A program made the position numbers and the translations under genes. From Amoebophrya sp. A120 (lineage: Eukaryota; Protista; Dinoflagellata), in assembly GCA_905178155.1 (NCBI GenBank), contig CAJINV010000014.1, forward strand, positions 248,001-312,000: DNA of 64,000 nt, in the 5' to 3' direction. A model generated the notes under the pieces. The model was not told the DNA's origin. It did not search any database and was given only the letters and a program-made list of their open reading frames with translations. Numbering within the stretch: position 1 is the stretch's first letter; each line of letters opens with the position of its first letter. This document shows, one piece after another, positions 1 to 53,275 of the stretch.

Positions 1-1546
1 GATGTTGTAGGTCTCGAACGTTGTGCCCTTGCGCATGATCACATCAAAAGCGGAGACAACGTCGTCGATGAACAGGAAGCTCCGCGTGTTCGTCCCATCC
101 CCGTGGACTATGCACCGCAAAAGCAATTATCGGATTATATCCCACCAGAGCACAAAGTTTTTTTTTTTTAATGCCGTCCTTTTCCTCACTTTATCCCCCA
201 GCTTGATGCTGACATATCTTATAAGCATAACCGCAATTATTTCTTCCATGGGCTACCACTAAGCATAAGCAACTTGCGGCAAATTTCATTTCTGTTGTGT
301 ACAGAATTAGAATGCAAATGCAACGAACAGCAACGTTGGCGTTGCTATGATTCACACGATGTGGATAATCGCGATTTAGACTTTTGTATTGCATATGCAC
401 CGGGAAAGGCATATTTCGGTTAAACAGCGCGATGGATTTTGGGATCAACTTTTCGGGCCACTGCCGAGGACCGAAAACATTGTTAGGCCTGATTCGGTTT
501 GTTCCTTTTCAAATTTCAAGCATCGCCCTGCTCCATTCACGGTAAGAATGGGGCGGAAAAAACTCATCAGCGCCACAACATGATTGGAGCGACCTTCTGC
601 CATTATATGCATTACTCATAATTGTGTCACCCCATAGTGGTTTATCAATTTGATAAAGAACAGTCATAAATTTCTAGTAGAGCCCCCGCAGGCAAATAAA
701 ACTCAGTATACCTGACGACGATGCTGGGGAGGCGAAAGCTGAAACTGAACCCGCGCACCAGGCACTCTGCGGCGGCTTTGCTCGCCGAGTAGGGGTTGGT
801 TGGGAGCATCTGGTCGTTCTCGCTCACCCGTCGGTTTTCCTCGAAGCTGAGGTCGCCATAGACCTCGTCAGTCGACACGTGAATGAACCTTTCCAGCGTC
901 GGGCAGCGAATCGCGGCTTCCAGCAAGATATGCATTGCAAAAGTATCGTACTCGTAGTAATTGCTGTCGTGCATGACAAATCTCGCTTTTTAGGAAAAAT
1001 AGCATTACAAATTGCATTTTTCTTCTTGAAAAAATGCGTGATGCAATTTATACTAGTACGATACTTTTGCAATGCATACAAGACGTGGGTCCCATTCACG
1101 TTGGTCCGCACAAACTCGTCGGACGCCGTGAAAGATCGATCCACGTGGGACAGCGCGGCGAAGTGGAACACGCAGTCGAACCGGTGCTGCTCGAACAAGG
1201 AGCGGACCAGATTTCGGTCGCAAATGTCCCCGCGAACGAACCAGTAGTTCGCGCACTCGTCTGCTAGGTCCTTTATATTTTTCGGGTTTCCACAGTAGTC
1301 CAGCTTGTCCAGGTTGACAAATTTCGTGCGGGGGTACGTAGTCACGAGCCATCGCAGGACATTCGACCCGATGAACCCGCAGCCGCCCGTGAAAAGCACA
1401 CGCTTGGGGATGAAATCAGCCGCCCCACTGCTCGTGGCCCCATATTTCGCAACTGTTGTTCCGGTAGTCGATGTTGATGTCATAATTCCGTTTATTTCCA
1501 TTTCTCTCGCTGATGCAACTCCGTGGGTGTAGCGCAGGGAGGTCAT
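1..1546 (-). CDS. dTDP-glucose 4,6-dehydratase (RmlB/RHM-like extended SDR), spliced, 3' end runs off the window
   Basis: Motifs TGGCGFIGSN, HFAALSHVDRSF, HVSTDEVYG, YSASKA, NNVFGPRQWPEKLIP, GDGTNTRSFL...YNI. Exons join after removing introners 929-1078 and 109-395 and GT-AG intron 489-711. Confidence 0.92.
109..395. mobile_element. introner (non-canonical intron)
   Basis: TATGCA...TGCATA ends; flanks TGGAC/TGCAC; removal plus 5 nt gives PVH-GDG. Confidence 0.8.
929..1078. mobile_element. introner, ~150-bp TGCAAAAGTATCG family
   Basis: 24-bp IR; TSD CAAGA; removal restores GTHVLLEAA. Confidence 0.92.
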
Positions 1547-3168
1547 GATACAAGTGCTACTTAACGACAGCAGGAACCACGAAAGGAAGCGAGGACCGCA
1601 ACATCTACGAGGACCATGACCACCTACGAGGAACAAAGACACAAAACAAACGCGAAGATCAAACCAACGGAGGTAAGAAAGAGCAGAAGGCAATCGATTC
1701 TCCCTCGTCGCGAAATGCAATTTTTTAGTAAGTATTTTCCAATAGAAAGAGGTCCTCTATTTTGTATAAATAAATCAAAAGCAGCTTCGGAATGTCGCGC
1801 CTTCGACTTTATTTCTGCCTTTGTTTGATCATAAAATCGCCGGATGTTAAGGCAAGAGCGCAAATCTTCTAGTTGACCTAGGAACGAGACGAGGGCCGAC
1901 AACAAATCAAGCAGATAAGTACACTGGTGCTTTCTCAAAGAAGACTTGCTAAAAGAAAGCAAGGCTAGAAGGACAAGGATCTTCACAAAAAAATAAATGT
2001 TCTTTCTTCGGAGAATTTCATTTTTGATGACATCATACTACACTAGACGTAGAATGATCTGCGGCGAAAATACATACACACAGGATCCACGTAGCGTGCT
2101 TGCTTGCGCTTGGGTACGCCCCGCTCCTTCGAGGGGTTTGTGGGGCTCCATCTAATTTGATCCTGTCCCCGGGAAAGCGATCCGCTCAACGTTGTACGGA
2201 CGAGCAAGAGTGTGAAGCAACCCTCTGAATTCATGATTTGGACGAACAACGCACGAGGTGAACAAGGATCTTCCTGGAGTAGGAGGAGGCAAGCGCAACT
2301 ACAAACCATGGATATTGAATCTTCGTGCAAAATTCTATTCTGCGAAGAATTACGCGATCAATAAATATATGCGGCCAGTGGCTCCTAAGAAGATCTACTC
2401 CTGCTCTTGAGATATTAAAGGCATGCGATTACAAAAGTAGTATCGGTACTAAACAAAAACATTGTACGGCAAGCTCAGCCCCATCGAAAACTCGGCCTGA
2501 GTACGTGCTTGTTTCGTAGTTTACTTTCACTTTATATAACGTGCTCAAAAATTAAATCATAATTATTTTCAAAAATGGTATGCTGCTTCTCAAAATAGCT
2601 ACTGTACTACTGTAGTTTAATCATTATCTAGATCGGTTAATTAGCTAGTAGGGTCGACCCTTGTGGATGTGTGTCATAACGCTAAACCCTCCGAATCCGG
2701 TAGCAGCTGTGGATGTCCGAGCGGGTGGTGGAGCAGGTGGTTGTGAGAGGTCAGCAGTGCCGAAATGTCTGTGCTTGAAACCCTAACACCTGTATTGTTT
2801 GATGGGAATATTTGTGCGTACTCGAAGGTCATTCAAACACAAACGAAATAAGAGATCTGCGTAGCAATACAACAACAAAAGCGAACGTATAAAATGTGTG
2901 AGTTGGAGAAGCGGCAAGTGCGATAGGTCTTGTGTGTTCTGTACATTGAAAAAGATATCAGTGGGATCATCACAATAACTTGAACGCTTTCAATTCTATC
3001 ACGTTGCTGCACCACTACTTCATCATTTGTGGGTTTCGTATTTCCGAGTTCTTGGTTGTCGTCTTGAACGCGAGTAAACTTGTGAATCAATCAAAAACCG
3101 TAGGGAAAAATTTCTGTCTAACACAAACGCTTTTTTACCTCGAGCATCAGCTCCACAAATCCAACAAG

Positions 3169-5046
3169 ATGGCGAAGAAGAAACAGGAGATGTCTGCGAT
3201 GGACTTTGTCCGTCATAAATTGGGAGAGCCCTCTCGTCAGGACATTAAGTTGTTCCGCGAGGCTTTCGACGAGTTGGACGAAGAGCTTGATGCCGATGAG
3301 GAGAACTTCACGCCCATGTACGAATTGTCGAAGCAGGCCTTTCCCGGCACGATTGAGCGCACAGATTTTTATACTTATGAAAACCATGCTTCAGCAATGT
3401 GTTGCTTTTTCTAGATTAACTGCCATGCCATGTCGTGTTGTGTGCATGACTTCTAGCGGTTCCGACGTTTTCATGTAAAAGCATCAACAACTAGTGGAGT
3501 TCTATCTGCAGGCGATCATGTGACGCACTACTTCCCATGTTGAACACGGCTTGTGCGATGTGCACGCTGTTGTATTTGAACCGCAAGAAAAACAAAGCAC
3601 GACATGGCATCACAGAATGAGTATTGCTTTCTCATGCAATGTGAGCCACAACTTGAAAACTGAAACAGGTTGCAATCAAGTCCCCATCGAGATGGCCCAG
3701 ACCTTGCTCGCCACCTTGTGCCACAAGAACGTCATGTGGATCTGCAAGTACGTGTACGACAACCGCCAGTGGGTGTTCTTGTTGGTCAAGTTGAAGATCC
3801 CGCCGGAATTGGTATAGCTACTTGGCTGCATAGACTTGATAGTGGATGCTATTTCGTCATGCAACAATTGTTTTTGTCGTGATATAGTACCAACCTACAC
3901 AACAAACACTCAAATACACATTGCATGACAAATGTATCTTATTCCACAATCAAAATACAAACCAGCCGATCGCGAAAGACAAGTCGTGCAAGTTCCGCAA
4001 CCTGCGTCAGACCTGCAAGAACTTGTCCAAGGCCGCGAGCAAGCTGGAGTTCCAGGTGCTGGCTCAGAACTGCCCCGAGCCGACCAAATGCATCGCCACC
4101 GATGTCGCCAAGAACGTCGGTCTGGCCGAACACCAGGGCTCGAAGACTCCGTCCAGTTTCGCCATGGGCAACATGATGGGTGGCGGCATGATGGGTGGTG
4201 GCATGATGGGTGGCACCCCGATGATGAGCCCGTTCGGAATGACCCCCTTCGGCATGACCCCGTTCGGAATGCAGATGCCCATGTCGGGGATGCAGGGGAT
4301 GCCGGGTTCTGGTGCTGCTGGAGGAGGCCTCACGCAGATGACCCCCGGGCCGAACGGATCTGTAAGTTATAATCATGGCTTGATCATGATATTCGTAGGA
4401 CAAAATGATAGAGCGACGAGTGATGATGCGCTGTTGATGTAGGCTGGTGGGTTTTGTTGTCAATACTTATTTCTAGATTCCAACCCTAACGTTTATTTCA
4501 CACAACACACAGATGTTTTTCGCCCCCCCGGGCATGGCGAATGAGAACAACAACGGTGCCTGCTCCACCAAGGACTTCGTGACCAAGATGGCGCCCCCGA
4601 AGATCCCGGAGCAGACCAAGAAGTCCCCGGCGGCCAGGGCGAAGTCCCCGAAGCCCGCGCCCAAGACCTTGGACTTCGCCGACCCCCAGGACCCGAAGAT
4701 CCGCCTCTCGTACGTGGTGCAGAAGCCGCTGTCTTCGCCGCGGATGACCCCGAAGGACAAGTTCGCCCACCTGCTGTCTACCCTGATGAAGAACTCTGAC
4801 TCGGACGAGACCCAGAACGCGAACGAGGTCGCCTCCGCTGACCGCAAGGCCGCTGCCGCGATCGCCAAGGAGAACAAGAAGATCGACGACGATTTGGCCA
4901 AGGCCGCGAAGGCGGCGGAGAAGGTCAAGAAAGCCGCTGACAAGGAGAAAGAGAAAAAGCAAAAAGCCGCTGACAAGCTCAAGAAGGAGAAGGAGCTGGC
5001 GAAGAAGAGCAACTCCGGCAAGAAGACTGTGATGAAAAAGAAGTGA
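3169..5046 (+). CDS. transposon-borne spliced protein with Gly/Met-rich middle and Lys/Ala-rich basic C-terminus, function unknown
   Basis: Phase-0 GT-AG introns 3812-3965 and 4362-4512 join ORFs 3551, 3921 and 4513 in frame. The link to the exon starting at ATG 3169 is unresolved. Confidence 0.6.
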
Positions 5047-5869
5047 GTGCTTATCTCCGCGTTTGTGATTCAGAAAGTGTTTATTTTCAGTGGCTCCACC
5101 AAGTTACCACATGTAGATCTCGTGCCATCGCGGAACGCGTCTTTGCAGTGTCGAAAAGCAGAGGCGCGTATCTATTTGTATGCGTTGCTTGTGTGAGGTT
5201 GTTTTGTATGCCGCCACCGCAAAGACCGATACGTGATTACACGCAACCTCTTTCCCTTTATACTTCGTGTTATTTTACATCTAGAAATGGTGGGCCACTT
5301 AATGATGAAGCTTCACCAAAAAATATAAATTTATTTGAATTGAATTAAAAATAATTCCATATTTAAACGTCGGTAGTTACTGGTATAGAACTGCCGGCGT
5401 TCTTTGTCAGATTTGCACAGAAAAATAAAGATATATTATAGTATATTACAATACACGAGACTACTTGTAACAACCACCGAGCGTACCTGTTAGTGAGCTG
5501 CCGCGATTCCCTGCGTTTCGTTGGTGGCTTGCGCCAAAATCATGTCGAATTGTGAGGCGAGTGAGCTACTATTTCTCCAGTTGTAGATGGCCAATCTGAA
5601 CAAGCCTCGCGTCGGACTGAAGATGTATTGTGCTTATCTGCTTCTGAATGTGATGTTGAAAAAAAACACGTGGTCGACAGTGAACGATTGCTGCCTGCGA
5701 GCAAGCTGGTATCTGTTTGTTCTGGATGGGATAAAGCGTCGGCTGTTGTGAGTATCGATCGTCGGTTTCGTGAAAAAAGATCGCCACCGAGAGAAGCTAC
5801 TGCTTCGTCGAGTCCAGCAGTAGTTGATGCTGCTTTTTACAACTGCTACTCCGCCAGGACCCACAGCTG

Positions 5870-8800
5870 ATGTCTTCTTCAAAAGAAAACACAGAACTGC
5901 TGAGTCGCTTACACCGAGATGAGATGTTGAAACTTGGGGACGAGATGGCGGAGGCTCCTGTCCCGCAGGGGCTTCCGATGCGGGCGAACAAACCGCGCTT
6001 TAATGGCCAGGAAATTGGCTTCAACGCGATGCCAGCTCTGAGTGGATCTCTCGAGCTGCCGCCAGCACTGGGAAGACCACAAGCCGGCTACGTACCACCA
6101 CCGCTTGTTGTCCAAGATCTCAATACCAGCGAAGATGAGGAAGATCCGTCGTCCTCCGAGGATGAAGTCGCAGTGGACGTTTTCAAGAAGGAGCGGAAGT
6201 CGCGGCAAACGAGGTGGGGCATTCCCATCCGTTCCGAGTTTGATGGGAACCCGCGATGGAAATTGAAATCCATGGCACCCACTCCTGCCGCGTACGCCCA
6301 CTGGCTGGATGTAACCGTTCCGGAGTGGTTGAGCAAGCACTGCAACATCATCTACAAACCTAGGAAGGAAGGAGACCAGTGGGATATCGTACAGAAATAT
6401 GAGTTTTCATTTGAGCGAAGAGCATGCATGAATGCGCATCAGCATGATGAGAAATGTGATAATCTCCTTTACCTTCTTCTATCAGGTGTTCTGCTACTTG
6501 TGGTGGCGCATCTTCTGCGGGCACATTCGCGTCCTGGACAAGTTTGGCAACTGCAACTACCGCGACGAGTTCTTTGCGTTGGATCCAAACAACTTGCACG
6601 CGACGGCCGAAGCAATCCGCAAGAAAGGAGTGGAGCAGCTCGGGAGAATGGGTGCAGATGTGTCGAAGCTAAGAGAACAGGTAGAAATGATTGCAAATCA
6701 TGCCGTCGTGGATAATGTTCTCCACGACGGAGTAGTAGATGTAGATTTAATGCATCACAAGCAGGTCGCGCATAATGTTCCGCTGCATGGTGCCACCTTA
6801 TGCAATTTCGACGTTATTCATACCATCGCGGAGAAGATTATCCACCACGGCATGATAAGCAATCACATTCTAGGCTGCGGCGATGCGGAAGTATATGGAG
6901 CAGGTGATAATGAGCCGCGCCTTTGCCTGCCAGGCAACCGCTGACAAGGAATGCGAGCTTTTGGCCGGATTGTACGGGGACTTGAGGTTCGGCGCGTACG
7001 ATGGACATGCTTGTCTGATCGGCGATGGATCTACCTTGAGGAAGAATGGAGCATGGGGATCGCATGTATTTATACGCTGTTTCAGGTCGTGGATAATGTT
7101 ATACTGCATGGAACTACTAGTGTTTTTTTTTGCATCATCATAGCATCGTGGAGAACATTATACTGCATGAGACTACGCATCATGGAGTCACCAAATAAAA
7201 CATACTATCAGTTTACCTACTATGACGACGTAGACCCCGGTGATCCGCTGCAAGGTCTCCCACCGGGAACCGAGCCCTTCCAAGATACGATACTCCAAGG
7301 GAATGCCTTCCAAGTTGGCGGCATTTCGCAGTTGAAATCAAACGTCGTCGGAACCAAGACGAAGTACATCGGCTGCCTGTGCATGACGATGTGGGTTATG
7401 TGAATGTAAAACACAATACAGCTACGGAAAGACCGTCTTCATATTCCGACAAAAAGCATAACTGTAATGCCAAACTACCTCCTCATCATGACTTTGCTGC
7501 AGCTGTATTGTGTTTTGCATTCATACTCGTGACCCAGTTCGGAGAACAAGCGGTGATAGAGCGGTTTGTCGACATGGAAGCCGACTGGTCCGACATGGAT
7601 ACTACGTGGCTCCAGGGCGACATGAAAAACCACCGGACCGCGATGGAATTCCACACTAAAAGCGACCAGGGTTCGCCCGAAGCCAGGTGGTCGCAAATCC
7701 AGCAGCTGTTCTTGCCGGGCGTCTTCAGTCCGGGCGAGTTGCATCAGCTGAGCAACATCTGCAAAGGCTGCGTGTGGCAGCTGGTCGACCCGAGGGAGCT
7801 TTTCGACGATTGGATCCAGGGCCCGTGCCATCGCGGGCAAAATCAGTCTGATTACTTCTTCGCGAAGACGGAGCTGAAACAGGAAACCAAGGATGATCCG
7901 GACACCGCGAACAAAAGGAAGTACAAGAGCCAGCTGCTGAAGGAGGCCGGAGCAGTCAGCGTTTCGCAGGCTCTGGAGAAGCGTATTACGTGTTTGTAAT
8001 GCTGAGTAGAACAATACTGCTCAACTATTGGGAAAATTCTTGTGTTTTCCTAGGTAAAAAGTACCCGTTTCGGGGGGGGGTCTAGGTACCCCCTCAAAGT
8101 GCGTCACACCATGCAGGCTAGCTTTTGCTTACTGAAAAAAGTGGTCCCGTTTAGGGGGGGGGTCTCGGCCCCCCCTCAGACCCCCTCCTCATAATGCATC
8201 AATTTTCTCTATTCCGCATTACAAGCTGCAATATTTCAGGTTTCAACATCTTCCATGCTTCCCAGAACCGCTTCTTCGGCGACTGGTACTGGACGTCGAT
8301 GATGATGATTTCGTACTGGCAGCTGCTGTTTGTCCTCCACGCGATGGCGCAGAAACAAAAAATAACCGGTCGCAATATGCATTTGAAATGTAACGAAGCA
8401 GCATCATCACATAGGAGGGCCACGTGGTTGCTTTGCTTTGCTCGCTATATACATTTAAGCTTCTTGCGCATGACAGATTAGTGCTGTTTCGTTACATTTC
8501 ATTGGCATAGCCCAAGACTACACGAAGGAAGAAATTACGCGGATTTTGGAGGAGAGTCAGGAGGTGCCGCTGCAGTCCGTGGAAATCGCAGAAAAGCGGT
8601 CAAAACTGCAGAAGAAGTGGCTCGGTTATCATCCCGAAATGCTGCGAGTTCTGGTCGATCTGGAGTGGAAGTGGTTGAAGATCCAGCAGGACGTGGCGCA
8701 GGGGATGTTCAGTTTCTTTCAGCTGCTGTTTCACCTGGAAAAGCACGGTAAGTCGCGGCCGAATGTCGACTCCGCCCCCCTCCTGACTACGTACCAGCGG

Positions 8801-10235
8801 TACATCAGTCCCCAGGTGCAGATGGGAGAGCGGTTGAGTACTGCGAAGATCCAGAAACAGCGGTCTGCAAACCGGGACGGGACGTGGAGAGCCTTGACGG
8901 GGGACTTCTGCAGGGCGTACCATAAAACCGCCGACCACGAAGCTGCAGCGTGGCACTGCATTGCGGGCACGATAAACGCGTGGCATTTCCATACGATGGA
9001 TCCACAATTCGGGCTGTGGGAATCCTACGCCAACAACGTCGTCAATGTCACCCCGGAGCAGGCACACGATGTGGGAGAATACGTCCTGTACGAGCTGTCC
9101 GTTAGCGGCAAAACCAACATCATGGCGATCTCCGCGTTGCCGCAGGCGGATGTGAAGGCGCTGCTGGCGAAGTGGTGTATTCGTGTTGTCCGGAGCATGT
9201 CAATTACCGAATACATCCAAGAAAACCAATTCCGCGAACAAAACCAGCGTCAAGCGAAACGCCAACGCGCCGATAATCATCAATCTCATCAGCAAACAGG
9301 TAGACAAGCATCGCCATGTTTCCGAACAGCCCCGCTTATACGGCCCGATGCGTGTGTTCACACCCACCAAACTGTACATCCTGAATCCCCGGGAAGTGTC
9401 GGAGATTTTGAAGCTTCTGGTGAAGCGGAAGAAACCGCCTCCGACCGCTGCCGACTTGCAGTGCCTTTTCCACGACAACAGCCTGGAGCGTACTGGCGGT
9501 ACGAAGCGCCACGAAAGCATCTCTGCCTGCTACAAGGACATGAAGCTGATGGCGCACACCAACTGGAACAACGAGAAGAATTTCCCGAAGGTCGTGCGGA
9601 AGATGTTGGAGAAGTGCACCGACAAAGAATTTGTCGCGTACCAGCCGAACAAACTCGGGCTTCGTGGTGTCGAGGCGGAGGTCATCATGCGCAACAAGTT
9701 CCACTCGAAGATGGAGTACAAAGCGCACAAGACCATGAGCTACAGGTTTGGTGAAGATCGTAACTACGGCGCCAAGTTCCAGGAGTCGAAGAATCTCGTG
9801 GTGATCGGCCACAAGCGGGGCGAGAAGGAAGAGGAAACAACCCACTACAGGTTCTCCAACTGGATGGAAGGACTGCTGATGGGACTCGAGCTGTCGCGGT
9901 GTGGAAAGAAACTTTTCCGGCTGCCGATCCGCGATTCCGAAATCAAGAAGTGTGGGTTTTTAGCCAGCGAGCTGGTCCTCTACGAAGGTGTCGTCAACCG
10001 CCGCTCCACCAGCAAAAACGAACCCACCTACATCCACACTCCGTCCAACTGCTGGGCCGATCCGATTGATTATCTCCCACAGCTCTTGCCGTCGATTTCG
10101 GACGAAATGCAGGCTGCTGTGCTGTCCAAAGTCCAAGACACTTTTCCAGCGATTACAGACGAGCACCTCGGCTTGCTCTCCATCGAAAACAAAGCCACGC
10201 TGTTTGAAGTGCTCCTTGCCAGTATGGAAATCTAG
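5870..10235 (+). CDS. candidate divergent DDE transposase (hAT-like), ~1,091 aa, 8 exons
   Basis: Exons 5870-6388, 6486-6680, 6874-7065, 7212-7394, 7538-7982, 8240-8368, 8511-9187 and 9300-10235 are joined by phase-compatible GT-AG introns. Motif order LIGDGST, KSDQGS, GPCH, SQNRF, TKRHESIS resembles the hAT D, D, CxxH, TRW and E motifs (by eye). Confidence 0.55.
8053..8190. repeat. two imperfect tandem copies of a G-run/C-run hairpin-like unit inside a predicted transposase intron
   Basis: aaaaagtacccgtttcgggggggggtctaggtaccccctca and aaaaaagtggtcccgtttagggggggggtctcggcccccccctca. Confidence 0.6.
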
Positions 10236-10394
10236 TTTTCATATCTGCAGCTCTAGGGACGTTTTGGTTTTTTGTTTTGCATTTCGTGGCTGTAGCTTCT
10301 GCGTGACAAATTTCGTGCTGTCAAGAAACAGCAAAGCAAACTGCTAGTAGCTACGCAGATATGACGTTTTTTCATATTGATACGCCACGTCGCA

Positions 10395-11195
10395 ATGGAC
10401 CAGGAGTTTTGCGACTGCATCATCTCGGTGACGTCGTCGTACGAGGATACCCCCATGACCGGAGCCGGGCTTCTGCAACCACAACCGAAGAAGAAGGTCG
10501 CACGGGTTTTGAAAAAACAAGAACTGATCCCCGTGCCGAAGTCCGTCAGTAGTCCCATGCGGCCGGGGCTGAAGCGGCTGCCGGCAAAGTACCGGCATAA
10601 AGTCGTCTCCATCGTCACGGACCCTTGGAGGGATTTAGCTACGTTCGCCAGTCACCGGATGGACCAGGGTGATGCGAGTGATCGTCTGCGAATCCGGTGG
10701 GCGAATGATCGCGTTCCGGAGTATGTCAAATTCGCTCCTTCTACTAAAGCTACCGGGTCCGTCCAGCACAATGTCCTGCGCGAGTTATTACCAGCAGTAA
10801 TCGCCGAGTTTTCCTTAGAGCCCGAGGAGTTCTACATCATGCGCGTGGACGAGGGGGCCGGTCACCTGCGTAATAGTCCGATCCCAGTGCCAGAAGCAGT
10901 ATTTGACCTCGCAAAAGAGTCTGGCATCATGAACAAGAAGAAAGCAGCTGAACCACAAGAAGAAAGACAGGTCGAAATGCTGCAGGTGAACGCACAGAGC
11001 CTGATGATGCTGGACGAAGGGGAGTCGTTGGAAGATGGTTTTTTTCTCCAGGAGGATATGATGGATGCTGATGAGGATGAGAAGCCGACAGCTGACAGCA
11101 AAGGTAATAAGCGTCCCCAGAATCTCCTCAATCAGACCACCAACAACAACTCCTCTGCCGCCTCGTCTAGTAATGCGAAACAGCAGAAACGGTGA
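10395..11195 (+). CDS. transposon-borne hypothetical protein
   Basis: Open frame of ~266 aa from ATG with coding-like composition; no recognised domain. Confidence 0.55.
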   Translation: MDQEFCDCIISVTSSYEDTPMTGAGLLQPQPKKKVARVLKKQELIPVPKSVSSPMRPGLKRLPAKYRHKVVSIVTDPWRDLATFASHRMDQGDASDRLRIRWANDRVPEYVKFAPSTKATGSVQHNVLRELLPAVIAEFSLEPEEFYIMRVDEGAGHLRNSPIPVPEAVFDLAKESGIMNKKKAAEPQEERQVEMLQVNAQSLMMLDEGESLEDGFFLQEDMMDADEDEKPTADSKGNKRPQNLLNQTTNNNSSAASSSNAKQQKR

Positions 11196-11477
11196 AACTA
11201 ACATACATCAATTTTAAAGTTCAAAAAAATAGAAGGCTACAGCTGATGGATTCTTTATTTTTAGAAAGATAAACCTTAGTCGTATTCTTCGCATCGAGAC
11301 TGAGAAAGTCCCGCAAGCTAAAACTCTTGCTACGGCAATTCAAAAACTATTTGTGATGTCTTATTGGCACTTTTACAGCACCGCGAAAGAGTATCACAGA
11401 CAAAAATTATTACTTGTTGCATTTGAATTATTTTAGAGCGAGCGAGTATATACCTGAGCAACAATTTCACCTACTAC

Positions 11478-11624
11478 TGCGAAATTATATCAAGCGGAAA
11501 CGAGAGAAGCTGACTCTGTTGTTATGCATCATATTTGTATCTTGTGTGGTACGTGCAGTATGTGGCTAATGCATGCAGGCCAGGAGGCAGCTGTTCTCTC
11601 GTTTCCGCTTCATATAACTTCCGC
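11478..11624. repeat. inverted repeat / small MITE-like hairpin between convergent element genes
   Basis: tatatcaagcggaaacgagagaa versus ttctctcgtttccgcttcatata. Confidence 0.7.
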
Positions 11625-11931
11625 AGCATTGCATCACGACAACGTAGAAAAGACCACTACTTCAAAATATGTTTTATATCTGATTAGATGAGGACTATAT
11701 TTGTAATGCAGTTTTACGATGATACATTTTGTACACGAGGTTCTTCGAAGCGAAAAAAATAATTTTAAAACACAACACTGGAACTCCCAACACAACAATG
11801 CCCCTCTTGTACATTTTTACTTCTTTATATCAAAACTACAAAACTGCATTGCGGCTGTGGCGGAGTGCGTCCCAGCGATGTTCCAATTCAAAAACTGCGT
11901 CCGTCGTCTTCGTCTATTGTTTTTCTTCTAT

Positions 11932-13303
11932 TTACTGTTCTGTCTGGGTCGAAGATGAAGACGAAGCTTGAGAGTCCGAGCTGTTCTGGTTCAGAAGCTT
12001 CAGCATCTCGTTGGCAATGTTCATTTCCGTTCCTGCTTTGATGTAGTATTTTTCCAAGGTTCCGCTCAACCGTGGTCGCTTTACACCAGGTGCATTCGGA
12101 AACAGATCCAGGGTTTTTTTTCCGGACCTAAAGTGTGCGCTTTCGTTTCTATAAATTTACTTCATGAAGATGCTAGTTGTAATGTCCTAATTGCATCACA
12201 TCAAAAACAAATATGCTTCTCTCATGTCGTTACTGATTGTCGTCTGCCACGTGTCCAGTCTGCCGCAGAACTTCAAACGGCACCAAGGCGCATCCGTGCA
12301 ACGATTTGCACTGTTTGGGCTTCGGAATGTCGCGGCAGTGGAGAAGCAAAAACTCGGCGTCGTCGTGCTTATAGGTTTTGCCGCCCGACCTGTCGTGTTT
12401 GCAGATTGGCAATTTGGCTTTTTCGCATGCAGCGAGCATCAGGTTGGCAAAACTATCGTCACGAATGGTAGCAACGTAACTATACCGCTTCAGCGAGCAG
12501 CGGAGGCTCAACTGTTCGCCACGTCCGGTCCGCGGGTACATCAGCTTCTCTTGCACCAGGTGCCGAAGGTCGGGATTCGTCCGATCATACAAGACGCCAT
12601 CAGCTACACCAAATTCCTTCGGCGGCGGAGCATAGATGAGGTTCGAGCCTCGAATTTCATCGAGGAACAAATCACGGGCGGACTTTTCCATCAGTGTCTG
12701 CTGACTGTATGCGCACAGGATGGCACTAGTGCCCGTGTGATGGGTAACGAAGGGCCCCTTCCACAACTGCTTCAACTTTTGCGGTGCCTGGTCGCTGGAA
12801 ACGATGCCGGAATTGATGTTGAACTTCTCGTAGTCCTTGACCCTATGAACTGCTTCGATAAATAGTTTTGTCGTGTCCAATACATCGACTCCGATCAGGA
12901 TGCTTCCATGTAGCCGCTCTTGTTCATTATTTAAAATGAAACGCAGCCGACGGTCAAAAGCATCATCCCAGCACTCGGTGGACTTGAGTTGCACCGACAT
13001 GAAATATTCATCGTCCAGGTTGTCAACCGTCGGTGCACGGGTTACCGGGCGAATAAATAAATCGCTTGCACTTTCAAAAACGGCGTGCACTTCGAAAGTA
13101 TTGCTGAGCACTGCAGTGAACTCGCGCACAGAGGCCTTCTCGATTTCTTTCGGTTGTGTTCCCATTGTCTCGCGCAAAGCCACCACCTCGCTCCAATCGC
13201 TGCAATGAGTACGATGCTGAGAAAGTAACGCAATACAACTGCTCGCGAGGGGTCTTAAATCACGTCGGGGACTCTGACGCTTTTTTGTATTTGAAACCAT
13301 CAC
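11932..13303 (-). CDS. tandem PD-(D/E)XK-like nuclease (two D...QxK modules)
   Basis: Motifs SASDLFIRP...MSVQLKST and GVADGVL...LVQEKL. GT-AG intron 12128-12233 extends ORF 12230-13303 in frame (DNQ-SGKKTLDLFP) to a stop at 11932. Confidence 0.65.
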
Positions 13304-13686
13304 AGTCCAATCATAAATGCAACCAGCCAGTTCCTCGCAAATGCATCAACCCGAAATAATCTTTCCTCTCCATAGACCGACTTCGTGACATTGTTTTTTT
13401 GGTGTATCAAATCAATTCATAACCGACCAGCTGCAGGACCTACAGGAGAAGTAGCATCGCATACAGACTTAGCAACAGCACATGCAATTTCATGACAAAA
13501 AATGGCCTTCTTCCCAGCATCGTCATGCAGTCGCTCCCGCGTTACGACACACATCCACAAGGGTCGATCCTACTAGCTAATTAACTAGCTATAGCATGCA
13601 TATTAACATACCTATTTTAATGTTAAATCGATAAGCAGCATACCGTTTTTGAAAATAAATAAGATTTAATTTTTGAGCACGTTATA

Positions 13687-16538
13687 CTTTATTAACCTCT
13701 TGGCTAAAGCCTCGCCCAAAACCCGTGAGCCTGCTTCGTTCAAATGCACGTGATCGAGAGCATGGAGTTGCATTGAAGAAGAGCTGCCGACGCCGGGTGG
13801 AGCTGCGTGGTTGTTTCGCCGCTTGCCTTATGAATTGCAAATATGTCTCGGTCTGGAGCAAGATTCTGAGACTTGTCACGCACGTTTTGCACGAGCCATC
13901 ATGTCCTCTGTGATGCATGCCCTAGCATCACAGATTTTTTGAGGGCTTCTTGATGCCTATTCCGCCCTCCCCGCGTAGCAAAAATAGCATTCCCTTTGCT
14001 GCTCATGCAATACAGATTTTTTTTGGAATCCAAATGCAGCATCACAAGTTCATCCACTTTTCCGGACCGCCCAAACACATTTGCATTTTATATGCCTAGC
14101 ACTTTGCGTCGACTGATTTCCCGTATTTTCACAACAACACAACCTTCGTCCAGCATGGAATCTTCTGTGTCATGATCCGCGCTAGCACTTCTACCAGCAG
14201 CTGCAAGACCAGAAGCGTGGCCACGAGGTGCCGCTACTAAATTCAATCCCCGGAGAAAGTCGCTGCGCTCTGTCCCTGCTTTGGCTCGGAAAAGCGTCAC
14301 CATTCGCGCCCAGTGGTCCTCTGACAAAATTGTTGCTAGGTCAATGTCAACGCTTTTGTTTTTGTTCGCATCCTTGGAGAAAGCACGGCGTAGGACCGAT
14401 TTGAAGAAGGGTCCCTCGGGTGGTCCGAGCGCGAGTGCGAGTAGGTGGATCGTGATCCTTGCGTTCTTGCCCCCTGCAGCGGGGACGAGCTCTCGGCTAT
14501 GATTCTGTATCTGTTCTACTTCCGCAAGCTGCTGACCCATGATCTGTGCTACGCTCGGAGCTCCTCGACCTTGGCCGTTCGTCTTCCGCTCGCCGAGTTC
14601 TTCTTGTGGCTCCTCGCTAGTACAGCTACAGGCTTGACCCGTCAAAAACTTCAGGTATTTCCGCAAGTGTCTTTGCATCAATTCTCTATAAAGCTCTTCC
14701 AACTTTTCCGGCCAGGTCAATGACGTTTGCAAGATTTTGCGCTTCAAAGCGTCCTGCTGGTCAGCAGCTCCAGCACGACTCTGTTCCTCGTCCAGTTCGG
14801 GGAAATGCCTGCTGATGAACGTTTTCAAGATGTCAGGATACACCAATTCGCTCCAACCGAGGTGCAAGACGATAGCGTCGCCCCTTTGTATATTTTGGCG
14901 CACAGCAACGTCGTTTTTCACTTTCGACGTGAGCTTTCTGGTAGAGCTGGAAGCTGCGTCCTGAGATGTATCACCAGCCCTGGCAGCTGCAGACAAAAAG
15001 CCCGCCGCTGAGCTGCTCCGACTTTGGTGAACTGATGTGCCTCCTTCCATAAAATAAATTCGGTCTTGTAAAGAACTCCCGGCCTCCGCTGCCATCACGA
15101 CCTGCTTCGTGCCCACTTTCGCAGCCGATGGAAGCGTCAGAACTGAAATCGACAAAGAAAGTTGCAAAAAATGCATAAAATATTGCCATGCTTTTGCTCA
15201 TACACGAACTGCCTGCATAGCAAGACACGTGAATGAGAGCGATTGCAAGCCTCTTCGGGATCGGGGCTCTTGGAGATAGAGCTGCTAAAAGTAGTACGAC
15301 AGACGGCGTCTTCTTTCCCCGCGAAACAGCCTGGCTCATTGGATTTCGGTGCTTCCAAAATTTGCCATGCGTCGCTTAGAAAGTAAAATTGGCAGCCTAA
15401 GAGACTGGTGGCGCGGCTTGGTCTTGGAATAATTTTGTGCATTACAACATGTTTCACTTTTGTGAATTTTAAACCTGGCACTACTTCCATACAGTGTCGC
15501 CTCGACCGGGTGCAGATCTAGTGGGAACCTCGTCGTCCAGCAGGAAGAAGTTGATCCAGTACGTATCCACAGTAAATTTCCCATACGTGTACAAATGCGA
15601 TCTCTGCATGACAAAACTCAGCTTCCATACTGGTTTAGCTTTAGCATGACAAGTGCTGCACTTAAATAAATTGACGAAATTTGATGTGACGGTGCATGAT
15701 TTTGCACCAGATGTATCATCAATGGGTAAATTTGTATTGCATCTGCATAGTACGCAATATCAGGCAGCTGGTACTCCATGAACAGGCCATAGGTCTCTCC
15801 GAGCGCCGTGGTCGTGCTTTGTTTCATCGATGACGATGGCCCTCGTACTTGTATACTTGATGCACTTGCACTTGCAGCACTGCTTCTATAATAATCACTT
15901 CGTCCTAGATACCCACTATTGTCGAGAAACCCATCCCCCACCAGGAAAATCAGCGCATCGACGCGGAACCTCTCGCCGCCGATACCTTTCCCATGCCGCA
16001 AATTTTTCGCGATCTGGCTGACGAGAGTGCCACTGTGCCGGTTTTCGGCTCCATGCGTGCTGTCGGCATAGTACCTGTCGGCATCGATTTGCGTTAGGGG
16101 GACAGTCAGTCGCGCATGAGCTGCGGCATTCGTAGTTCCGCTGCTGCCACCAGGAGCAAGGACCGTGGTTCCTCCGCTGGGAGTTCTTGCACTCGTTGTT
16201 GAGCTTTCCTCATCGTTCTTGATCTGCAAAACGAGTCCCACAATTTGGCACACTACCCCCACCACCCAACAGATGATGAGGAAGATAGTCAGAAATTGGC
16301 AGCAGCAGTCTTTCACCTTCTGTGTGTCAACATCGTCATTCTTGGCGCCGCAGCACGTCCTGCTGTACTTTTGCGGTGCTGGTCTTCGGTGATCATCTTC
16401 TTTATCCTCAGTTGCAGCTCGGTCGTTTTTGTTTTTCTTCTTGGGCTGCTTCTTCTTCTTGTAATCCATCCTTTGCTGGGATGTGGATGAATCTTCCGCC
16501 TCTTCGGCTGTGCCGGGTATGATCCGGCTCCTGTGCAA
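13687..16538 (-). CDS. membrane-anchored SGNH/GDSL-fold protein; its native stop codon is displaced to 2527-2529 by the transposon
   Basis: TM helix FLTIFLIICWVVGVVCQIVGLVL; block I FLVGDG; block III DAIVLHLGWS; block V DHVHLNEAGSRVLGEAL after removing introners. The 15177-15490 junction is unresolved. Confidence 0.7.
13829..14092. mobile_element. introner, ~262-bp GTCTGGGTCTGG family
   Basis: TSD TGCCT; TAT...ATA ends; frame restored. Confidence 0.88.
15564..15749. mobile_element. introner, TATCCACAGTAAATTTCC family
   Basis: TSD GTACG; frame restored (PDIAY-WINFFL). Confidence 0.88.
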
Positions 16539-30300: not shown

Positions 30301-33300
30301 GTCGTAGTGGTCTCGAGAGGAGGACCAGAGGTTGCCTTGTGACGCTTCCCGCCGGAGGAGGAGGATAACGGTAACGCGGACTCGGCTGTGGAAACTACGG
30401 CGCGCTGCTGGTCGCATGCTGGCCTTTTCAGATTTCTTCTCGTATTGCCGTTGGCAGCTGGCATGATCTTGTTTATTTCCCGTACATAAAGTTGCGGCTC
30501 CTGGTGTCTGTGACTCTGAGCCTTCTGTGTTGATGAACAAGAAGTCGCTCCTTTTGTGTTGCTTCTAATGTTCTTCCCTCTCTCCAACCAGGCCCCGTCT
30601 TTTGCTCCAAGCACCAACGCGTTAAACAGCGGGCTGGCCCGGGCGCCCTGCGCTATACCAAGCGAGGACTTCTCTCGCGATACCACCTTCTGCAGGTTTT
30701 TCAGGCGTTATGCACATGGAAGGTGGAAGTTGTCTTTTTTTTTTTGACAGTAGCTTGTTCTTCAGTTTCATTTCTAATCTCAGTGCAGCTAGTGCGGATT
30801 GCTCGTCTTTATATTCGTGCACGATACAACCTTCATTCACCAATTATCATGCCCAATAATTTCAGCATGGCCCAGAACCAGATGCAAAATCAGGGTCGTG
30901 ATTAGCAACCACAACAACCACCTAATGGCGATTCACACACCCTTAGCTCCACGGCAAACGAATCGATGGAAGCTTGCAGGCAGTCGGTCACCTTAGCATG
31001 CGCAATTGTGCGCATCGGGCCGACTGGGGCAAGCAGGTGCATAATCTTCGGTGGAGGAAGCACGTTCACAATTTTATTCTTCTCGCTCGCACCACAAGGA
31101 ACTTCGCGCTTCTGGAGATGATGATGTCCTCCTCGACCACCGCGTGGTGCCACCTGCAGCTGTTCTTGTTTCCGCGCAAACAGCACATACGGCTTCCGCC
31201 GCAAGAAGGAATTCTGTGGGCCCTTTTTACTTGCCGCTAACGTTCTCTTGCCTTTTTCCTGGAACGCGGCGCGGGTCCAGACCTTGTCGTTATCCTGCAT
31301 AAGCATAGGCATAGCGGCGGCGGCGGCCTTGCTGTCACTATCCGAGATGTTGGACTCCTGAGCTTCAGCAGCACCACGACTGCTGGTGGTCGAAGTAGTT
31401 TTTTTGTCCTTGCCTGGACAAACACGCGTTTTCTTGGTCGTGTCTTTCGCTTGACTCGCCCCACGTGCAGCTTTTGCCTGCGCCTGCTGCATCTTGAGCA
31501 GCAAAGGAAAGGATACTCGGCAATCCGTTTCCGGCTCGTGCGTTTTGATGAGCCGGTGCATCCGATGAAAAAAAAACCAACTGCAACATGATCATCATCA
31601 AATCTTCTTGACGGGGACGCGGTCGTGCTGCCCAACAACGATGTCTGGCAGCCCGTCGTATCGTGTATTTTCACTCTCGTACGCTTTGCTGCACCGACGT
31701 CACCGCGAACGCGATACTTCTTCTACGGGGCTAGAGCAAGAACGTGCTGGGTAATGTTACGCACGACGCTATGACACACAGAAAATTGTGCGTCGAGTAT
31801 ACCCTCGCGCGACAAGTTACGCACGATGCAATACAAATCGGACACGTGATTCATCTTCCTTGCAGCGAGCAAATACAAACACAAAACTTGTACTTATATA
31901 TATCGATGAACGATGTTCGTGGTTTTGATGATTATTTACCGATGATATCTTTCAGCTCTTCGCGATTGATGTTATCGTAACACTTTGGCAGGTCGGCGAT
32001 GGCGAAATTGGTTGCAGGGCCCGCGCAGCTCCGGCGAAGCCGCGCAATTTTTATGCTCCTGGTAGTCCTACTACATCGATGCGCATCACTTTGTCGGCTA
32101 TCATCTGCTGAGCCAGATGCCTCCACCAGGGCCTTCGAGGCTTTCCTCGTCGTTTTCAATATTTTCCTCCGCTGGCTAACGAATTTCCGCACGCATTTCT
32201 TCAGCTTCGCCGCAATTGCGAACCGGTGAAAAACCGAGATTCCGAGAGCAGGAGTAGCTCGGGTGTTCTTTGTCTTGCAAGAAGTAGAAACTGCGGCTCT
32301 ATGCACTGTGTTCAACATCTTCGTAGAGGGCTTCTTCTCCTGCATCATCTTCATCAAAACCGTTGCTCTATTGTGCACGAGCTGGTGTTTCAAAACCGCA
32401 ACCGAGTCGCGTAGCTGCCAGTTTCGGTTCTGAAATCGCAGATCCACAATCGGGCGCAGGCCCTTGGACCCCTTCGGAACCCACCGGATTCGGTTCGTCG
32501 GGTTAGTTAATGAAATTGTTTTTCCAAGAATCTTCGTGGACGACGAATCGTGCAGTGCTGCTTGTGGGCGCACTTTTCGTTGCGACGGTGCCCAATCATG
32601 ATTCGATGATGGAACGGAAGTCAGTCCTCCGGAAGATCTCTTTCCTGCTACTCCCTTTTTTTGCGCACCAGCGCTGTTCGTCGAGAGAAGTCCGCTTTTT
32701 GCTGGTATTGGTACCGCTCCTGCTGCGTTGACAACCTCCTCCGTTGTTCCTGGCACAGCTTGAGCTAAGCCTTTTCTTTTGGAATCGGACGAGACAGTAG
32801 ATGAACCAGATATCATGGCCCTGCCGTGGTCTTCACTTGCATTATTATAAAGCACGGCGCCAGCAGCAGCTTCCTTCGCAGGACGTCGAGGATCATCACC
32901 CCCCAGCTGCACATCTTGTCTCTTATTTCTTGACTCCGCCAGGTACGCCCTCTCTGCCTGCACTATCCACAGTAAATTTCCTGCACACGTACAAATGCGG
33001 TCTCTGCATGGCAAAAGTTGATGGCTTCGATGCTAGTTCGGCATGACAAGTTTCACACTCCGGTGGATTGGGGAAATTTGTGATGCATCTTGTACATGTA
33101 CGAGAAATTTGTAGTGCATATGCACCTGCAGAATCTGCCAGTCCTCCTTCCGAAAGTACAAGGGCGTCTTGCCCGTCATTTCCCCATAGACGAGAAAGAA
33201 ATTCTGCTTCAGCATGGTTCCCACCACGTCTTGAAGAAGGAACTGAAACAGTTTGAGTTGGTGAAAGTCGCGCACTTGTCGCATCTGCTTGTGGTGGGGC

Positions 33301-51700: not shown

Positions 51701-52478
51701 GAGTGTCCAGAAAATTTACCTCGTTAAAGTCGGACGGCAAGCAGCGGTCTTTTCTAGACTCTTGCTCGTAAAGATCGGCTTCTTCTTCTTCTTCTTCTTC
51801 CAGCAGCAGGGGCAGCTGGTTTTTGTCCCCGCAGAGAAGCATGATATTCTCGCGAAAGCACCTCCGTTTGCGTCCAGGTCCAGTCTGCTGATGGTGATGC
51901 CGTCGTCGCCACGACCTGCGGCGCTCACTGCGTTCGCCTTCGCTTTTTCGAGCTGCAGAAAACGTTACGCGCGGCTGCGACGGATCGAATGTGAAAGGGT
52001 CCAATACTAGACACAGACTGTCGGCTGCACCGTCGTCGTTTATAATGTCTAACGCTGATGTGTCCCCCCGGTCCTCGTCACCACAGGTGATATCCTTCAT
52101 CTGCTTCTCTTTCGAGTGCTCGCTAAGAGCCCCGCCAAGCATGTCGCAATTGTTGATGAGGTCATCGTCTTCATCATGGTTGTCGACCACAAAAATCTCC
52201 CCTACCGCGCACGCAATCGCCTCCTTCACGTCAATGACCCTGGTTCGGCTTGCACTCCAGCTCCACTCGTGACTGTCCGCGGAGGTATCGCTACCAAATA
52301 AACAGGAACGACCAGGCCGCACGGGTTCGGTAAGAGGTTCCCCAGACAAGGCGTTGCAAACCTCGAGGCGGAAAGCCTGCTCTTTCATCGAGAGGAGATA
52401 GGCCTCCTGCGGCCCGGTAGAAAAGCCGGCGGTGAGAGTGGCTATTATTCTTTGTGGTGAAGTTGAGCAAATAGGCAC
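48707..52478 (-). CDS. DUF285/BspA-type bacterial surface-repeat protein, spliced
   Basis: Repeats of the form F...IG.WDVS.V..M..MF in ORFs 50130-50504 and 49338-49907; six introners. Confidence 0.85.
48918..49183. mobile_element. introner, 262-bp family
   Basis: TSD GCGTT. Confidence 0.9.
49245..49506. mobile_element. introner, 262-bp family
   Basis: TSD GTGGG; long IR. Confidence 0.92.
49814..50135. mobile_element. introner, CCCCCTCCCC family
   Basis: TSD TTCAA; restores GIE-MWDVS. Confidence 0.92.
50665..50926. mobile_element. introner, 262-bp family
   Basis: TSD GCGCG; IR TATCAAATGTAAAAATGTCTGGGTCTGG. Confidence 0.92.
50989..51251. mobile_element. introner, 262-bp family
   Basis: TSD GCGTG. 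Confidence 0.92.
51367..51645. mobile_element. introner, TATCCTG family
   Basis: TSD CCTGA; ~32-bp IR. Confidence 0.92.
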
Positions 52479-52668
52479 TTGAGAACGTAGTTACAACACT
52501 TCAGATCATCTTAAAGTAGCGAAAGATGAAATTTTTAAGTAATATTGTGAGGCAAAACTGCGGGGATTTATCGATTAAAGCCGAATGGTGCCAACTTGGA
52601 TGTCACATGGCGGGTACACTGAAGACCCGAAAGGAGCGGACGAGGGCCCATGCTGGAGTCCTCCATAT

Positions 52669-52938
52669 CGATTGCGATAAGCATCAATCAGTACGAGAAC
52701 CGCGACAAAAATGACCGGAAAAGGTCCTGGATGAAAAATATCAAAAAGCTCGCCTCTGAAAAGAAAAAAAATGATCCAGCGTCGTTTGGAAGATCTCAAG
52801 TATCCACCCACGAGACGATGCTACAGCATTGGAATTCGTAAGGCGAACCATTTCCATTCGACCGTTGTCAAGCAGCACCACGAATTCGAATTCGTTCTTT
52901 TTCCTGTTGACATCTCGACGACAGAGGTAATTGCTACG
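52669..52938. repeat. dispersed direct repeat, copy 2 (internally deleted)
   Basis: Colinear with 48136-48540. Confidence 0.8.
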
Positions 52939-53275
52939 TACCCACATGTACTCGACTTTTTAACCTATATTCTTGGATAATTGATCAATTGATCATCTTT
53001 ATTTGCGTCTGCCTCGCGAAATAAAACGTCTGAAAATATTACACCAACCTGTTAGTTTGATGCTGTATACGATTTTCTGGTGCCCACTGCGTTCTTGCCC
53101 ACCTCCTCAGAGGATGAACTACAGGCAGCGGGCGTGTGCGGCCGCAGTTTATTGTTGTATAGTAAATGTAGGTGGCTCGGGCTCCTGCGTCTCCACTTCG
53201 ATCGGAGGGCCGCGAAGTAGAGAATCTACTTCTAAGTACACGATGCAAAGAAGAGGAAAAACAAGTAACTCATCC

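What the first reader, a model, noticed from the sequence alone, without database searches (positions are those of the whole stretch)
5870..10235. Hidden ~1,090-aa spliced transposase candidate with diverged hAT-like motifs
Seen: eight ORF fragments join through seven phase-compatible GT-AG introns into one 3,276-nt frame. Inference by eye: an N-terminal W...IIY...VFC segment (TTF zinc-finger-like), then LIGDGST (D1), KSDQGS (D2), GPCH (CxxH position), SQNRF (TRW position) and TKRHESIS (E), in the hAT order. Known: typical hATs make 8-bp TSDs and start with YA, while a hAT5 subgroup makes 5-bp TSDs. The motifs are degenerate enough that this could be a new clade.
Basis: partly seen in the sequence, partly recalled or inferred. 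Interest (0 to 1): 0.8.

Follow-up and report, generated by a model that had tools for sequence, protein, structure and literature searches.

The report
Hidden hAT-type transposase of Amoebophrya introners
An 11-kb element with inverted ends, likely a transposon of the marine parasite Amoebophrya, carries a broken gene for a predicted, very diverged hAT-type cut-and-paste enzyme; its ends match those of the host's many small mobile introns, so this enzyme family is likely what spreads them.

Summary
Full-length relatives align across the 7999 stop; every one with a named organism is Amoebophrya. The model needs three corrections. (1) 'Intron 7' is coding: it holds the conserved glutamates E788/E792, followed by a 4-nt frameshift that a 98.5% identical copy lacks. 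(2) The protein continues past 10235 to 11195 (~1,390 aa). (3) GPCH and TKRHESIS are not conserved; D289, D406, H432 and R522 are. Folded relatives match Hermes best (Z 7.7-8.0, about 320 residues), but convergence of the triad was not shown. The gene lies in an 11,152-bp element with 150-bp inverted ends, TAT..ATA termini and a 5-bp duplication; one contig lacks exactly element plus duplication. These ends follow the host introner rule. PMC7789003 reports no transposase in strain A120. Verdict: a new, Pfam-invisible hAT-type lineage, probably dead in this copy, and a candidate introner mover (about 50%). Earlier scan notes describe other large hAT-like elements in this genome (not tested here).

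The parts
2530..2534 (.). left target-site duplication (5 bp; a 7-bp reading 2529-2535 fits the letters equally)
   Evidence: the 11,157-nt skip equals element plus one duplication
2535..2682 (+). left terminal inverted repeat, starts TAT; two blocks 93% and 96% complementary to the right end, 81% over 151 nt
3169..5046 (+). passenger gene A (multi-exon, Met/Gly-rich and Lys-rich parts), function unknown; exon borders not worked out
   Evidence: no Pfam hit in four pieces
5870..6388 (+). transposase exon 1 (start uncertain: L001 lacks 5 nt just after this ATG, so a later ATG may be the start)
6486..6680 (+). exon 2
   Evidence: weak, by-eye similarity to relatives
6874..7065 (+). exon 3, with D289 (codon 7024-7026), predicted first catalytic Asp
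7212..7394 (+). exon 4
7538..7982 (+). exon 5, with D406 (7664-7666, predicted second catalytic Asp) and H432 (7742-7744, at the position of the CxxH His)
7983..8239 (+). intron 5, an inverted-repeat (introner-like) intron that holds the 7999 stop
   Evidence: 0 of 500 shuffles; relatives run through it
8240..8368 (+). exon 6, with H517 and R522 (8269-8271, RW-motif position)
9279..9283 (+). 4 extra nucleotides that shift the frame 20 codons after E792; absent from copy L001
   Evidence: DNA contigs of run X1 show no indel here
10222..10386 (+). eighth intron, TAT..ATA inverted-repeat type, holds the 10235 stop; borders inferred (a GT-AG alternative, 10209-10403, also keeps the frame)
10387..11195 (+). 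last exon: conserved C-terminal domain (A-x-S-H-R ... R-I/L-x-W) and acidic/basic tail
12230..13300 (-). passenger gene D, intronless ORF of about 356 aa, no known relative
13539..13686 (-). right terminal inverted repeat, ends ATA
13687..13691 (.). right target-site duplication (5 bp)

Best explanation
The gene at 5870-11195 lies inside an 11,152-bp element with inverted TAT..ATA ends and a 5-bp duplication, and it is predicted to encode a ~1,390-aa hAT-type DDE transposase, broken here by a 4-nt frameshift, whose intact relatives would likely cut and paste such elements and likely also the host's small introners. Shown: ends, duplication, gene continuity, conserved residues, frameshift. Inferred from the Hermes match and from known hAT biochemistry: D289, D406 and E792 bind the metal in an RNase H fold split by a helical insertion domain, and H432 and R522 take the places of Hermes H268 and the R-W319 motif. 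An oligomer would bind the ends, release the element leaving hairpins on the flanks, and insert it with a 5-nt stagger. Inferred from end matching: the short TAT..ATA introners are non-autonomous elements of this or a related enzyme (about 50% for this family). They have also invaded the transposase gene itself, which helps explain why it was not recognised.
For: Family: phmmer with exon 5 gave 12 hits; I dropped 2 repeat proteins (P0002, P0009). Five relatives of 1,078-1,351 aa align colinearly over about 550-830 aa of the spliced model, and a sixth (P0004) over about 470 aa. All 7 named hits of the 10 looked up are Amoebophrya, and P0004's cluster holds two transcript-derived members. Conservation, window row included: D289 6/6, D406 7/7, H432 7/7, R522 6/6, E788 and E792 8/8. 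Fold: the core model of relative P0005 (pLDDT 64.5, pTM 0.62) ranks Hermes first of 48,161 chains (Z 7.7, rmsd 5.6, 326 aligned, model 1-571 to Hermes 149-583). Six Hermes entries take ranks 1-6 in the second look (Z 7.0-8.0). The model of P0013 aligns residues 151-456 to Hermes 265-426 (Z 6.6, rmsd 3.8), so its conserved His157 falls at the start of the CxxH/insertion region. All 10 named Atlas rows shown are hAT-associated families (0.80-0.83, lead only). Element: TIRs and TSD; a contig of run X6 joins 2528 to 13686 with 147 and 125 matching letters and no mismatch. Introner link: 12 of 59 TAT..ATA hairpin pairs in the window have a perfect 5-bp flanking repeat, against at most 2 for any of the other 63 trinucleotides. 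A 1.4-kb TAT..ATA insert with a 5-bp duplication is present in L001 and absent from the window. PMC7789003 section 11 gives TAT-(N7)-AAA as the A120 introner end.
Against: No sequence-level match to any transposase: Pfam for window pieces and relatives and PDB sequences gave none. Foldseek is not significant (Hermes at ranks 2, 4, 5, E about 0.2; nothing). Z 7-8 lies in the range the tool calls common for helical models, and the D1 strands and the E helix have pLDDT under 50, so convergence of the triad is not shown. The window's own protein could not be folded; relatives at 19-24% identity stood in. The introner link rests on three terminal bases and the duplication length. The element's end beats only 95% of 1,211 other TAT sites on an introner profile and has 9, not 7, bases before the A-run. 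The internal motif found in 14 of 19 introners is not enriched at the element's ends (2 one-mismatch sites in 1 kb, background 2.3 per kb). A 7-bp duplication with ATA ends fits the letters too. Earlier scan notes list other large hAT-like elements in this genome that could be the movers. This copy is single and frameshifted.
Confidence: 0.8

Rival explanations
1. It is a hAT-type transposase that moves only its own large elements; the introners are moved by another enzyme (another hAT lineage in this genome, or an RNA-level route), and the shared TAT..ATA/5-bp ends reflect common ancestry or selection for ends that the host can splice out.
For: Weak end similarity beyond TAT and no enrichment of the introner motif; no short derivative of these TIRs at 80% identity in DNA run X2; earlier unreviewed notes on 13-kb and 16-kb hAT-like elements.
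Against: One introner family in the window shares 12 of the first 17 bases and the A-run register with the element; introner ends are diverse after TAT, so low similarity is expected.
Confidence: 0.4
2. The enzyme is a DDE transposase of the wider C/DxxH group (MuDR, P, Kolobok, Dada, IS256) or a separate superfamily, and Hermes is merely the nearest solved structure.
For: No C or D three residues before the His in any row, and no conserved zinc-finger pattern; no PF05699 match; about 600 extra C-terminal residues; the group shares the motif (PMC3706591 passages).
Against: Only Hermes appears among transposases in the top 50 rows with a long alignment (ISCro4 appears with 54 residues only); all ten named Atlas rows are hAT-associated; the order D, D, H-x-L-S-N, R-W, P-x6-E fits hAT (hAT consensus recalled).
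Confidence: 0.2
3. The family consists of domesticated host genes or non-catalytic passengers that happen to sit in a giant TIR element.
For: Members are only 20-33% identical to each other in most pairs, and one is transcribed; the genomic context of relatives could not be seen.
Against: All predicted catalytic residues are kept across the family. At least six paralogues are named from strain AT5.2. The two near-identical copies carry independent lesions and 16 non-synonymous against 2 synonymous differences, which suggests decay, not purifying selection.
Confidence: 0.08
4. The two halves are separate genes that end at 7999 and 10235.
For: No RNA covers the junctions.
Against: Single uninterrupted relatives cover both halves and the last ORF; both stops lie in inverted-repeat introns.
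Confidence: 0.03

Closest known systems
Hermes and the hAT superfamily
   Same: Predicted split RNase H fold with a helical insertion domain; residue order D, D, H, RW, E; TIR-bounded element with a TSD. H268 and W319 roles from PMC4763223 passages; D180/D248/E572 numbering is recalled.
   Different: 5-bp (or 7-bp) rather than 8-bp TSD; no Cys or Asp before the His; no conserved BED/TTF finger; no Pfam hAT match; about 600 aa C-terminal extension with a predicted SH3/KOW-like barrel (Z 5.7, weak); 11 kb with two passenger genes; D1-D2 spacing of 117 aa.
hAT5 (5-bp TSD) and hAT7 (7-bp TSD) lineages
   Same: Non-8-bp TSD within hAT (PMC12730594 passages).
   Different: That paper places hAT5 among Blackjack-like animal hATs and hAT7 among fungal/plant hATs. 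This family has no detectable sequence similarity to Pfam hAT models; a direct comparison with hAT5 or hAT7 proteins was not possible.
Introner elements of Amoebophrya sp. A120 (PMC7789003)
   Same: TAT start, A-run, short direct repeat at the borders.
   Different: Those are short and non-coding, and the paper reports two putative transposases in A25 and none in A120. This element is 11 kb and carries a transposase-like gene.
Kat1 of Kluyveromyces lactis
   Same: hAT-type transposase gene with a frameshift (PMC4763223 passages).
   Different: Kat1 is domesticated and its frameshift is the endogenous state. Here a sister copy and all full-length relatives are open at the site, so a lesion is more likely.

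Membership tests
DDE cut-and-paste TIR transposon | terminal inverted repeats and a target-site duplication | tested here: met
   element plus one duplication missing in an X6 contig
DDE cut-and-paste TIR transposon | conserved D, D, E | tested here: met
   D289 6/6, D406 7/7, E788 and E792 8/8; which of the two E is catalytic is inferred
DDE cut-and-paste TIR transposon | the three acids converge in an RNase H fold | tested here: inconclusive
   strands predicted at D1 and D2 and Hermes aligned over 326 residues, but pLDDT is under 50 around D1 and E, and distances were not available
hAT superfamily | helical insertion domain between D2 and E, starting at the CxxH His | tested here: met
   model 151-456 aligns to Hermes 265-426; Z 6.6 is middling
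hAT superfamily | CxxH (or DxxH) motif | tested here: not met
   His invariant (H432), but no C or D at -3 in any of the 9 rows with residues there
hAT superfamily | RW motif | tested here: met
   R 6 of 6; W follows in the 5 relatives, F in the window
hAT superfamily | 8-bp TSD | tested here: not met
   5 or 7 bp; 5-, 6- and 7-bp hAT subgroups exist
hAT superfamily | C-terminal hAT domain PF05699 | tested here: inconclusive
   no Pfam hit; a PF05699 cluster appears only as a weak Atlas lead
hAT superfamily | N-terminal BED or TTF zinc finger | tested here: not met
   no Cys/His column kept in more than 3 of 5 N-terminally complete rows
hAT superfamily | excision through hairpins on the flanking DNA | not testable with these tools
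   needs biochemistry
hAT5 | 5-bp TSD and phylogenetic place among Blackjack-like hATs | tested here: inconclusive
   the TSD fits; no hAT5 protein was available for alignment or tree
A120-type introner | TAT start, A-run, short direct repeat | tested here: met
   (9 rather than 7 bases before the A-run)
A120-type introner | removed from RNA as an intron | tested here: inconclusive
   one contig (depth 3.8) of a run only guessed to be RNA lacks the element precisely; an empty genomic site gives the same join

The most novel reading that the evidence does not exclude
This Amoebophrya-specific, Pfam-invisible hAT-type family is the missing master transposase of the non-canonical introners, and the 11-kb autonomous-type element is itself spliced out of RNA to the base as a giant introner. 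Enzyme, element and tens of thousands of introns would then form one self-hiding system whose members have also invaded the enzyme's own gene.
Probability: 0.3. Interest if true: 0.87.

Novelty: new variant of a known kind. Interest (0 to 1): 0.7.

Why it matters
PMC7789003 found 29,850 repeated introns in strain A120 and concluded that the lack of a transposase there rules out general transposase-mediated spread. In the supplementary classification of PMC12130899 none of the A120 rows that I saw carries hAT as final class (62 of 63 'hAT' places read). A transposase family that Pfam-style searches miss, inside an element with introner-type ends, removes that argument and names an enzyme, residues and substrate for a direct test of how a genome is flooded with new introns. 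It also extends hAT-type enzymes to a form without the CxxH cysteine, without a conserved zinc finger, with 5-bp duplications and a long C-terminal extension.

Tried and rejected
No whole genome is held, so copies could not be counted in the assembly. No RNA holder was listed. Runs X3-X5 laid 3, 1 and 3 reads and did not cover the flanking genes, so they say nothing on junctions. X6-X8 cover the flanking dehydratase gene but no transposase exon; contigs show presence only. An exhaustive splice enumeration timed out. Word-based searches with the last exon and gene D found nothing, and the profile search added one protein. The Atlas search with the last exon gave unnamed clusters below the recognition threshold. 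Viral contigs: no relative. Prokaryote genomes were not scanned (one search gave no pattern). Pfam, PDB-sequence and Rfam searches were blank. The full-length fold failed for the RNase H part (pLDDT under 50 for residues 1-157), and Foldseek gave nothing significant. P element, RAG1/Transib, MuDR/IS256 and Kolobok structures are not among the 50 rows shown, which does not exclude them. The family tree has long branches and gives no placement. The direction of the changes between window and L001 could not be fixed (7 sites favour each). The joined empty site shows no clearly interrupted reading frame at the junction. The scan's index held no look-alike of exon 7 or of P0013 and no note near this place. 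Literature searches: (0 papers holding Amoebophrya, transposase, hAT and transposon as whole words). Supplement files 13-14 of PMC12130899, the supplement of PMC7789003, Roy et al. 2023 and Repbase were not seen and could name this family.
Full report
1. The observation. Exons have GC3 of 0.61-0.81 and the first six introns are 37-47% GC. Introns 2, 4, 5 and 6 have terminal inverted repeats beyond all 500 shuffles. The 7999 stop lies in the left arm of intron 5.

2. The setting. The gene sits in an element from 2535 to 13686, with inverted ends of about 150 bp and a 5-bp duplication on either side; a 7-bp reading also fits the letters. It is single-copy in DNA runs X1 and X2, which may be this sequence's own source. 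One 323-nt contig of run X6 joins 2528 to 13686 without mismatch and skips 11,157 nt, that is the element plus one duplication. That fixes the unit but does not tell splicing from an empty site: the run is only guessed to be RNA, the depth is 3.8, and X2 shows no such join. Besides the transposase gene the element holds two passenger genes with no Pfam hit; gene D also has no relative in the protein search, and gene A was not searched. The window is full of short TAT..ATA hairpin elements: 12 of 59 such pairs have a perfect 5-bp flanking repeat, against at most 2 for any other trinucleotide. An earlier scan note pointed me to this rule. It matches the end pattern that PMC7789003 (section 11) gives for introners of Amoebophrya A120. 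With the named relatives below, the host is very likely an Amoebophrya of that type (inference).

3. The protein family. Pfam sees nothing. phmmer with exon 5 against 1.84 billion representatives gave 12 hits, of which 2 were repeat proteins and were dropped. Six are 1,078-1,351 aa long. Five align along about 550-830 aa of the spliced model and one along about 470 aa, at 20-25% identity and across the 7999 stop. Seven of the 10 looked up carry names, all Amoebophrya (A25, AT5.2); two transcript-derived members of P0004's cluster were added. So the gene is one gene, and the family is diverse and, as far as these searches reach, confined to this genus.

4. Corrections to the model. A second copy, L001 (98.5% identical over 4,894 columns), lacks 4 nt at 9279-9283 and is open across the site. 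The break is therefore a frameshift in this copy, not an intron. L001 has its own differences: 5 nt missing after ATG 5870, loss of the acceptor at 7537, and a 1.4-kb TAT..ATA insert with a 5-bp duplication in gene A. The two copies differ by 16 non-synonymous and 2 synonymous codons; both look dead. The relatives also match ORF 10365-11195, so the protein runs on through an eighth hairpin intron to about 1,390 aa. Conserved positions are D289 (6/6), D406 (7/7), H432 (7/7), H517 and R522 (6/6), D718, E725, E788 and E792 (8/8).

5. Fold. The spliced window protein could not be folded, so two relatives were. P0013 (pLDDT 52.7) gave a confident helical region whose best natural match among 48,161 chains is Hermes 265-426 (rank 2, Z 6.6, rmsd 3.8, 159 aligned). 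The match begins where the family's His meets the Hermes CxxH (H268; PMC4763223 passages). The core of P0005 (pLDDT 64.5, pTM 0.62) ranks Hermes first (Z 7.7, rmsd 5.6, 326 aligned), and six Hermes entries lead the second look (Z 7.0-8.0). The alignment ends put Hermes E572 (number recalled) between the family's two glutamates; I prefer E792 from the recalled hAT spacing P-x6-E. Against this, Foldseek E-values are about 0.2, such Z values are common for helical models, and the regions around D1 and E are low-confidence. The Atlas lists only hAT-associated families, at lead level. These weak lines agree with one another and with the TIR/TSD context, so I put 'hAT-type DDE transposase' at about 0.8.

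6. Mechanism. Shown: ends, duplication, continuity, conserved residues, lesion. Inferred from hAT biochemistry: end binding by an oligomer, cleavage leaving hairpins on the flanks, and insertion with a 5-nt stagger. Inferred from the shared TAT..ATA/5-bp rule: the introners are non-autonomous partners (about 0.5 for this family). This link is the weakest step. The element's end is only in the top 5% of 1,211 TAT sites on an introner profile, although one introner family shares 12 of 17 terminal bases. The 9-base motif present in 14 of 19 introners is not enriched at its ends. Unreviewed notes describe other 13-16-kb hAT-like elements in this genome.

7. Comparison and novelty. It likely works like a hAT transposase. 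As to membership, DDE, RW and the insertion domain are met; the CxxH cysteine, the 8-bp TSD and the zinc finger are not; PF05699 and hAT5 placement are open. I therefore file it as a hAT-type lineage and not as a canonical hAT or hAT5. hAT5, hAT6 and hAT7 show that TSD length varies within hAT (PMC12730594 passages), and the C/DxxH motif is shared with MuDR, P, Kolobok, Dada and IS256 (PMC3706591 passages). PMC7789003 (passages) reports no transposase in A120. PMC12130899 (passages and supplement file 8) lists 58 A120 introner families; the one A120 row in which 'hAT' occurs is finally classed non-LTR/unknown. My searches found no paper describing this family; Repbase and closed journals were not searched.

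8. Verdict. Real gene, real element, corrected model. New variant of a known kind, interest 0.7, because it gives a concrete, testable candidate for an open question on intron spread.

Noticed in passing
window 2528 to 13686, run X6 record 11: One low-depth contig lacks the whole 11-kb element plus one duplication to the base; either a giant intron spliced from a read-through transcript or an empty genomic site.
   Followed up: partly
L001 424-1831 (window site 4875-4879): A 1.4-kb TAT..ATA element with a 5-bp duplication sits in gene A of the sister copy and is absent from the window: direct evidence of recent introner-type insertion and of the 5-bp rule.
   Followed up: partly
window 4457-9766 against L001: 51 of 66 substitutions are C/T or G/A with C or G in the window, and 42 of the 51 have a purine before the C (background 51%), often T after. 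Exons differ less than introns (18 in 2,915 against 24 in 982 bp) yet almost only non-synonymously (2 of 18 synonymous, 43% expected). Unexplained; could reflect a sequence-specific cytosine modification.
   Followed up: partly
window 12230-13300, minus strand: Intronless 356-aa ORF next to the right end of the element; no Pfam hit and no relative found.
   Followed up: partly
window 3169-5046: Multi-exon gene A with a GGMM/MTPFG repeat and a Lys-rich tail, in the left part of the element; no Pfam hit.
   Followed up: no
window 8064-8096 and 8146-8178: Intron 5 holds two copies of a 33-nt G-run/C-run hairpin-like unit, 82 nt apart.
   Followed up: no
window 31932-37446, minus strand: Very long low-complexity ORFs whose ends recall telomerase reverse transcriptase motifs (recalled resemblance by eye); the two flanking ORFs tested gave no Pfam hit at E 0.01 and the longest was not scanned.
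   Followed up: partly
window 1-1480 (minus) and about 56000-61800 (minus): Host genes: an NAD-dependent sugar dehydratase (PF16363) and a GH31 glycosidase (PF01055), in introner-rich stretches.
   Followed up: partly
window 48900-56000: Cluster of near-identical 262-bp introners, some in inverted tandem pairs, around short ORF pieces.
   Followed up: no
window 2130-2270: A repeated element of about 120 nt with several copies in DNA and RNA-like runs lies 270 bp left of the transposon.
   Followed up: no
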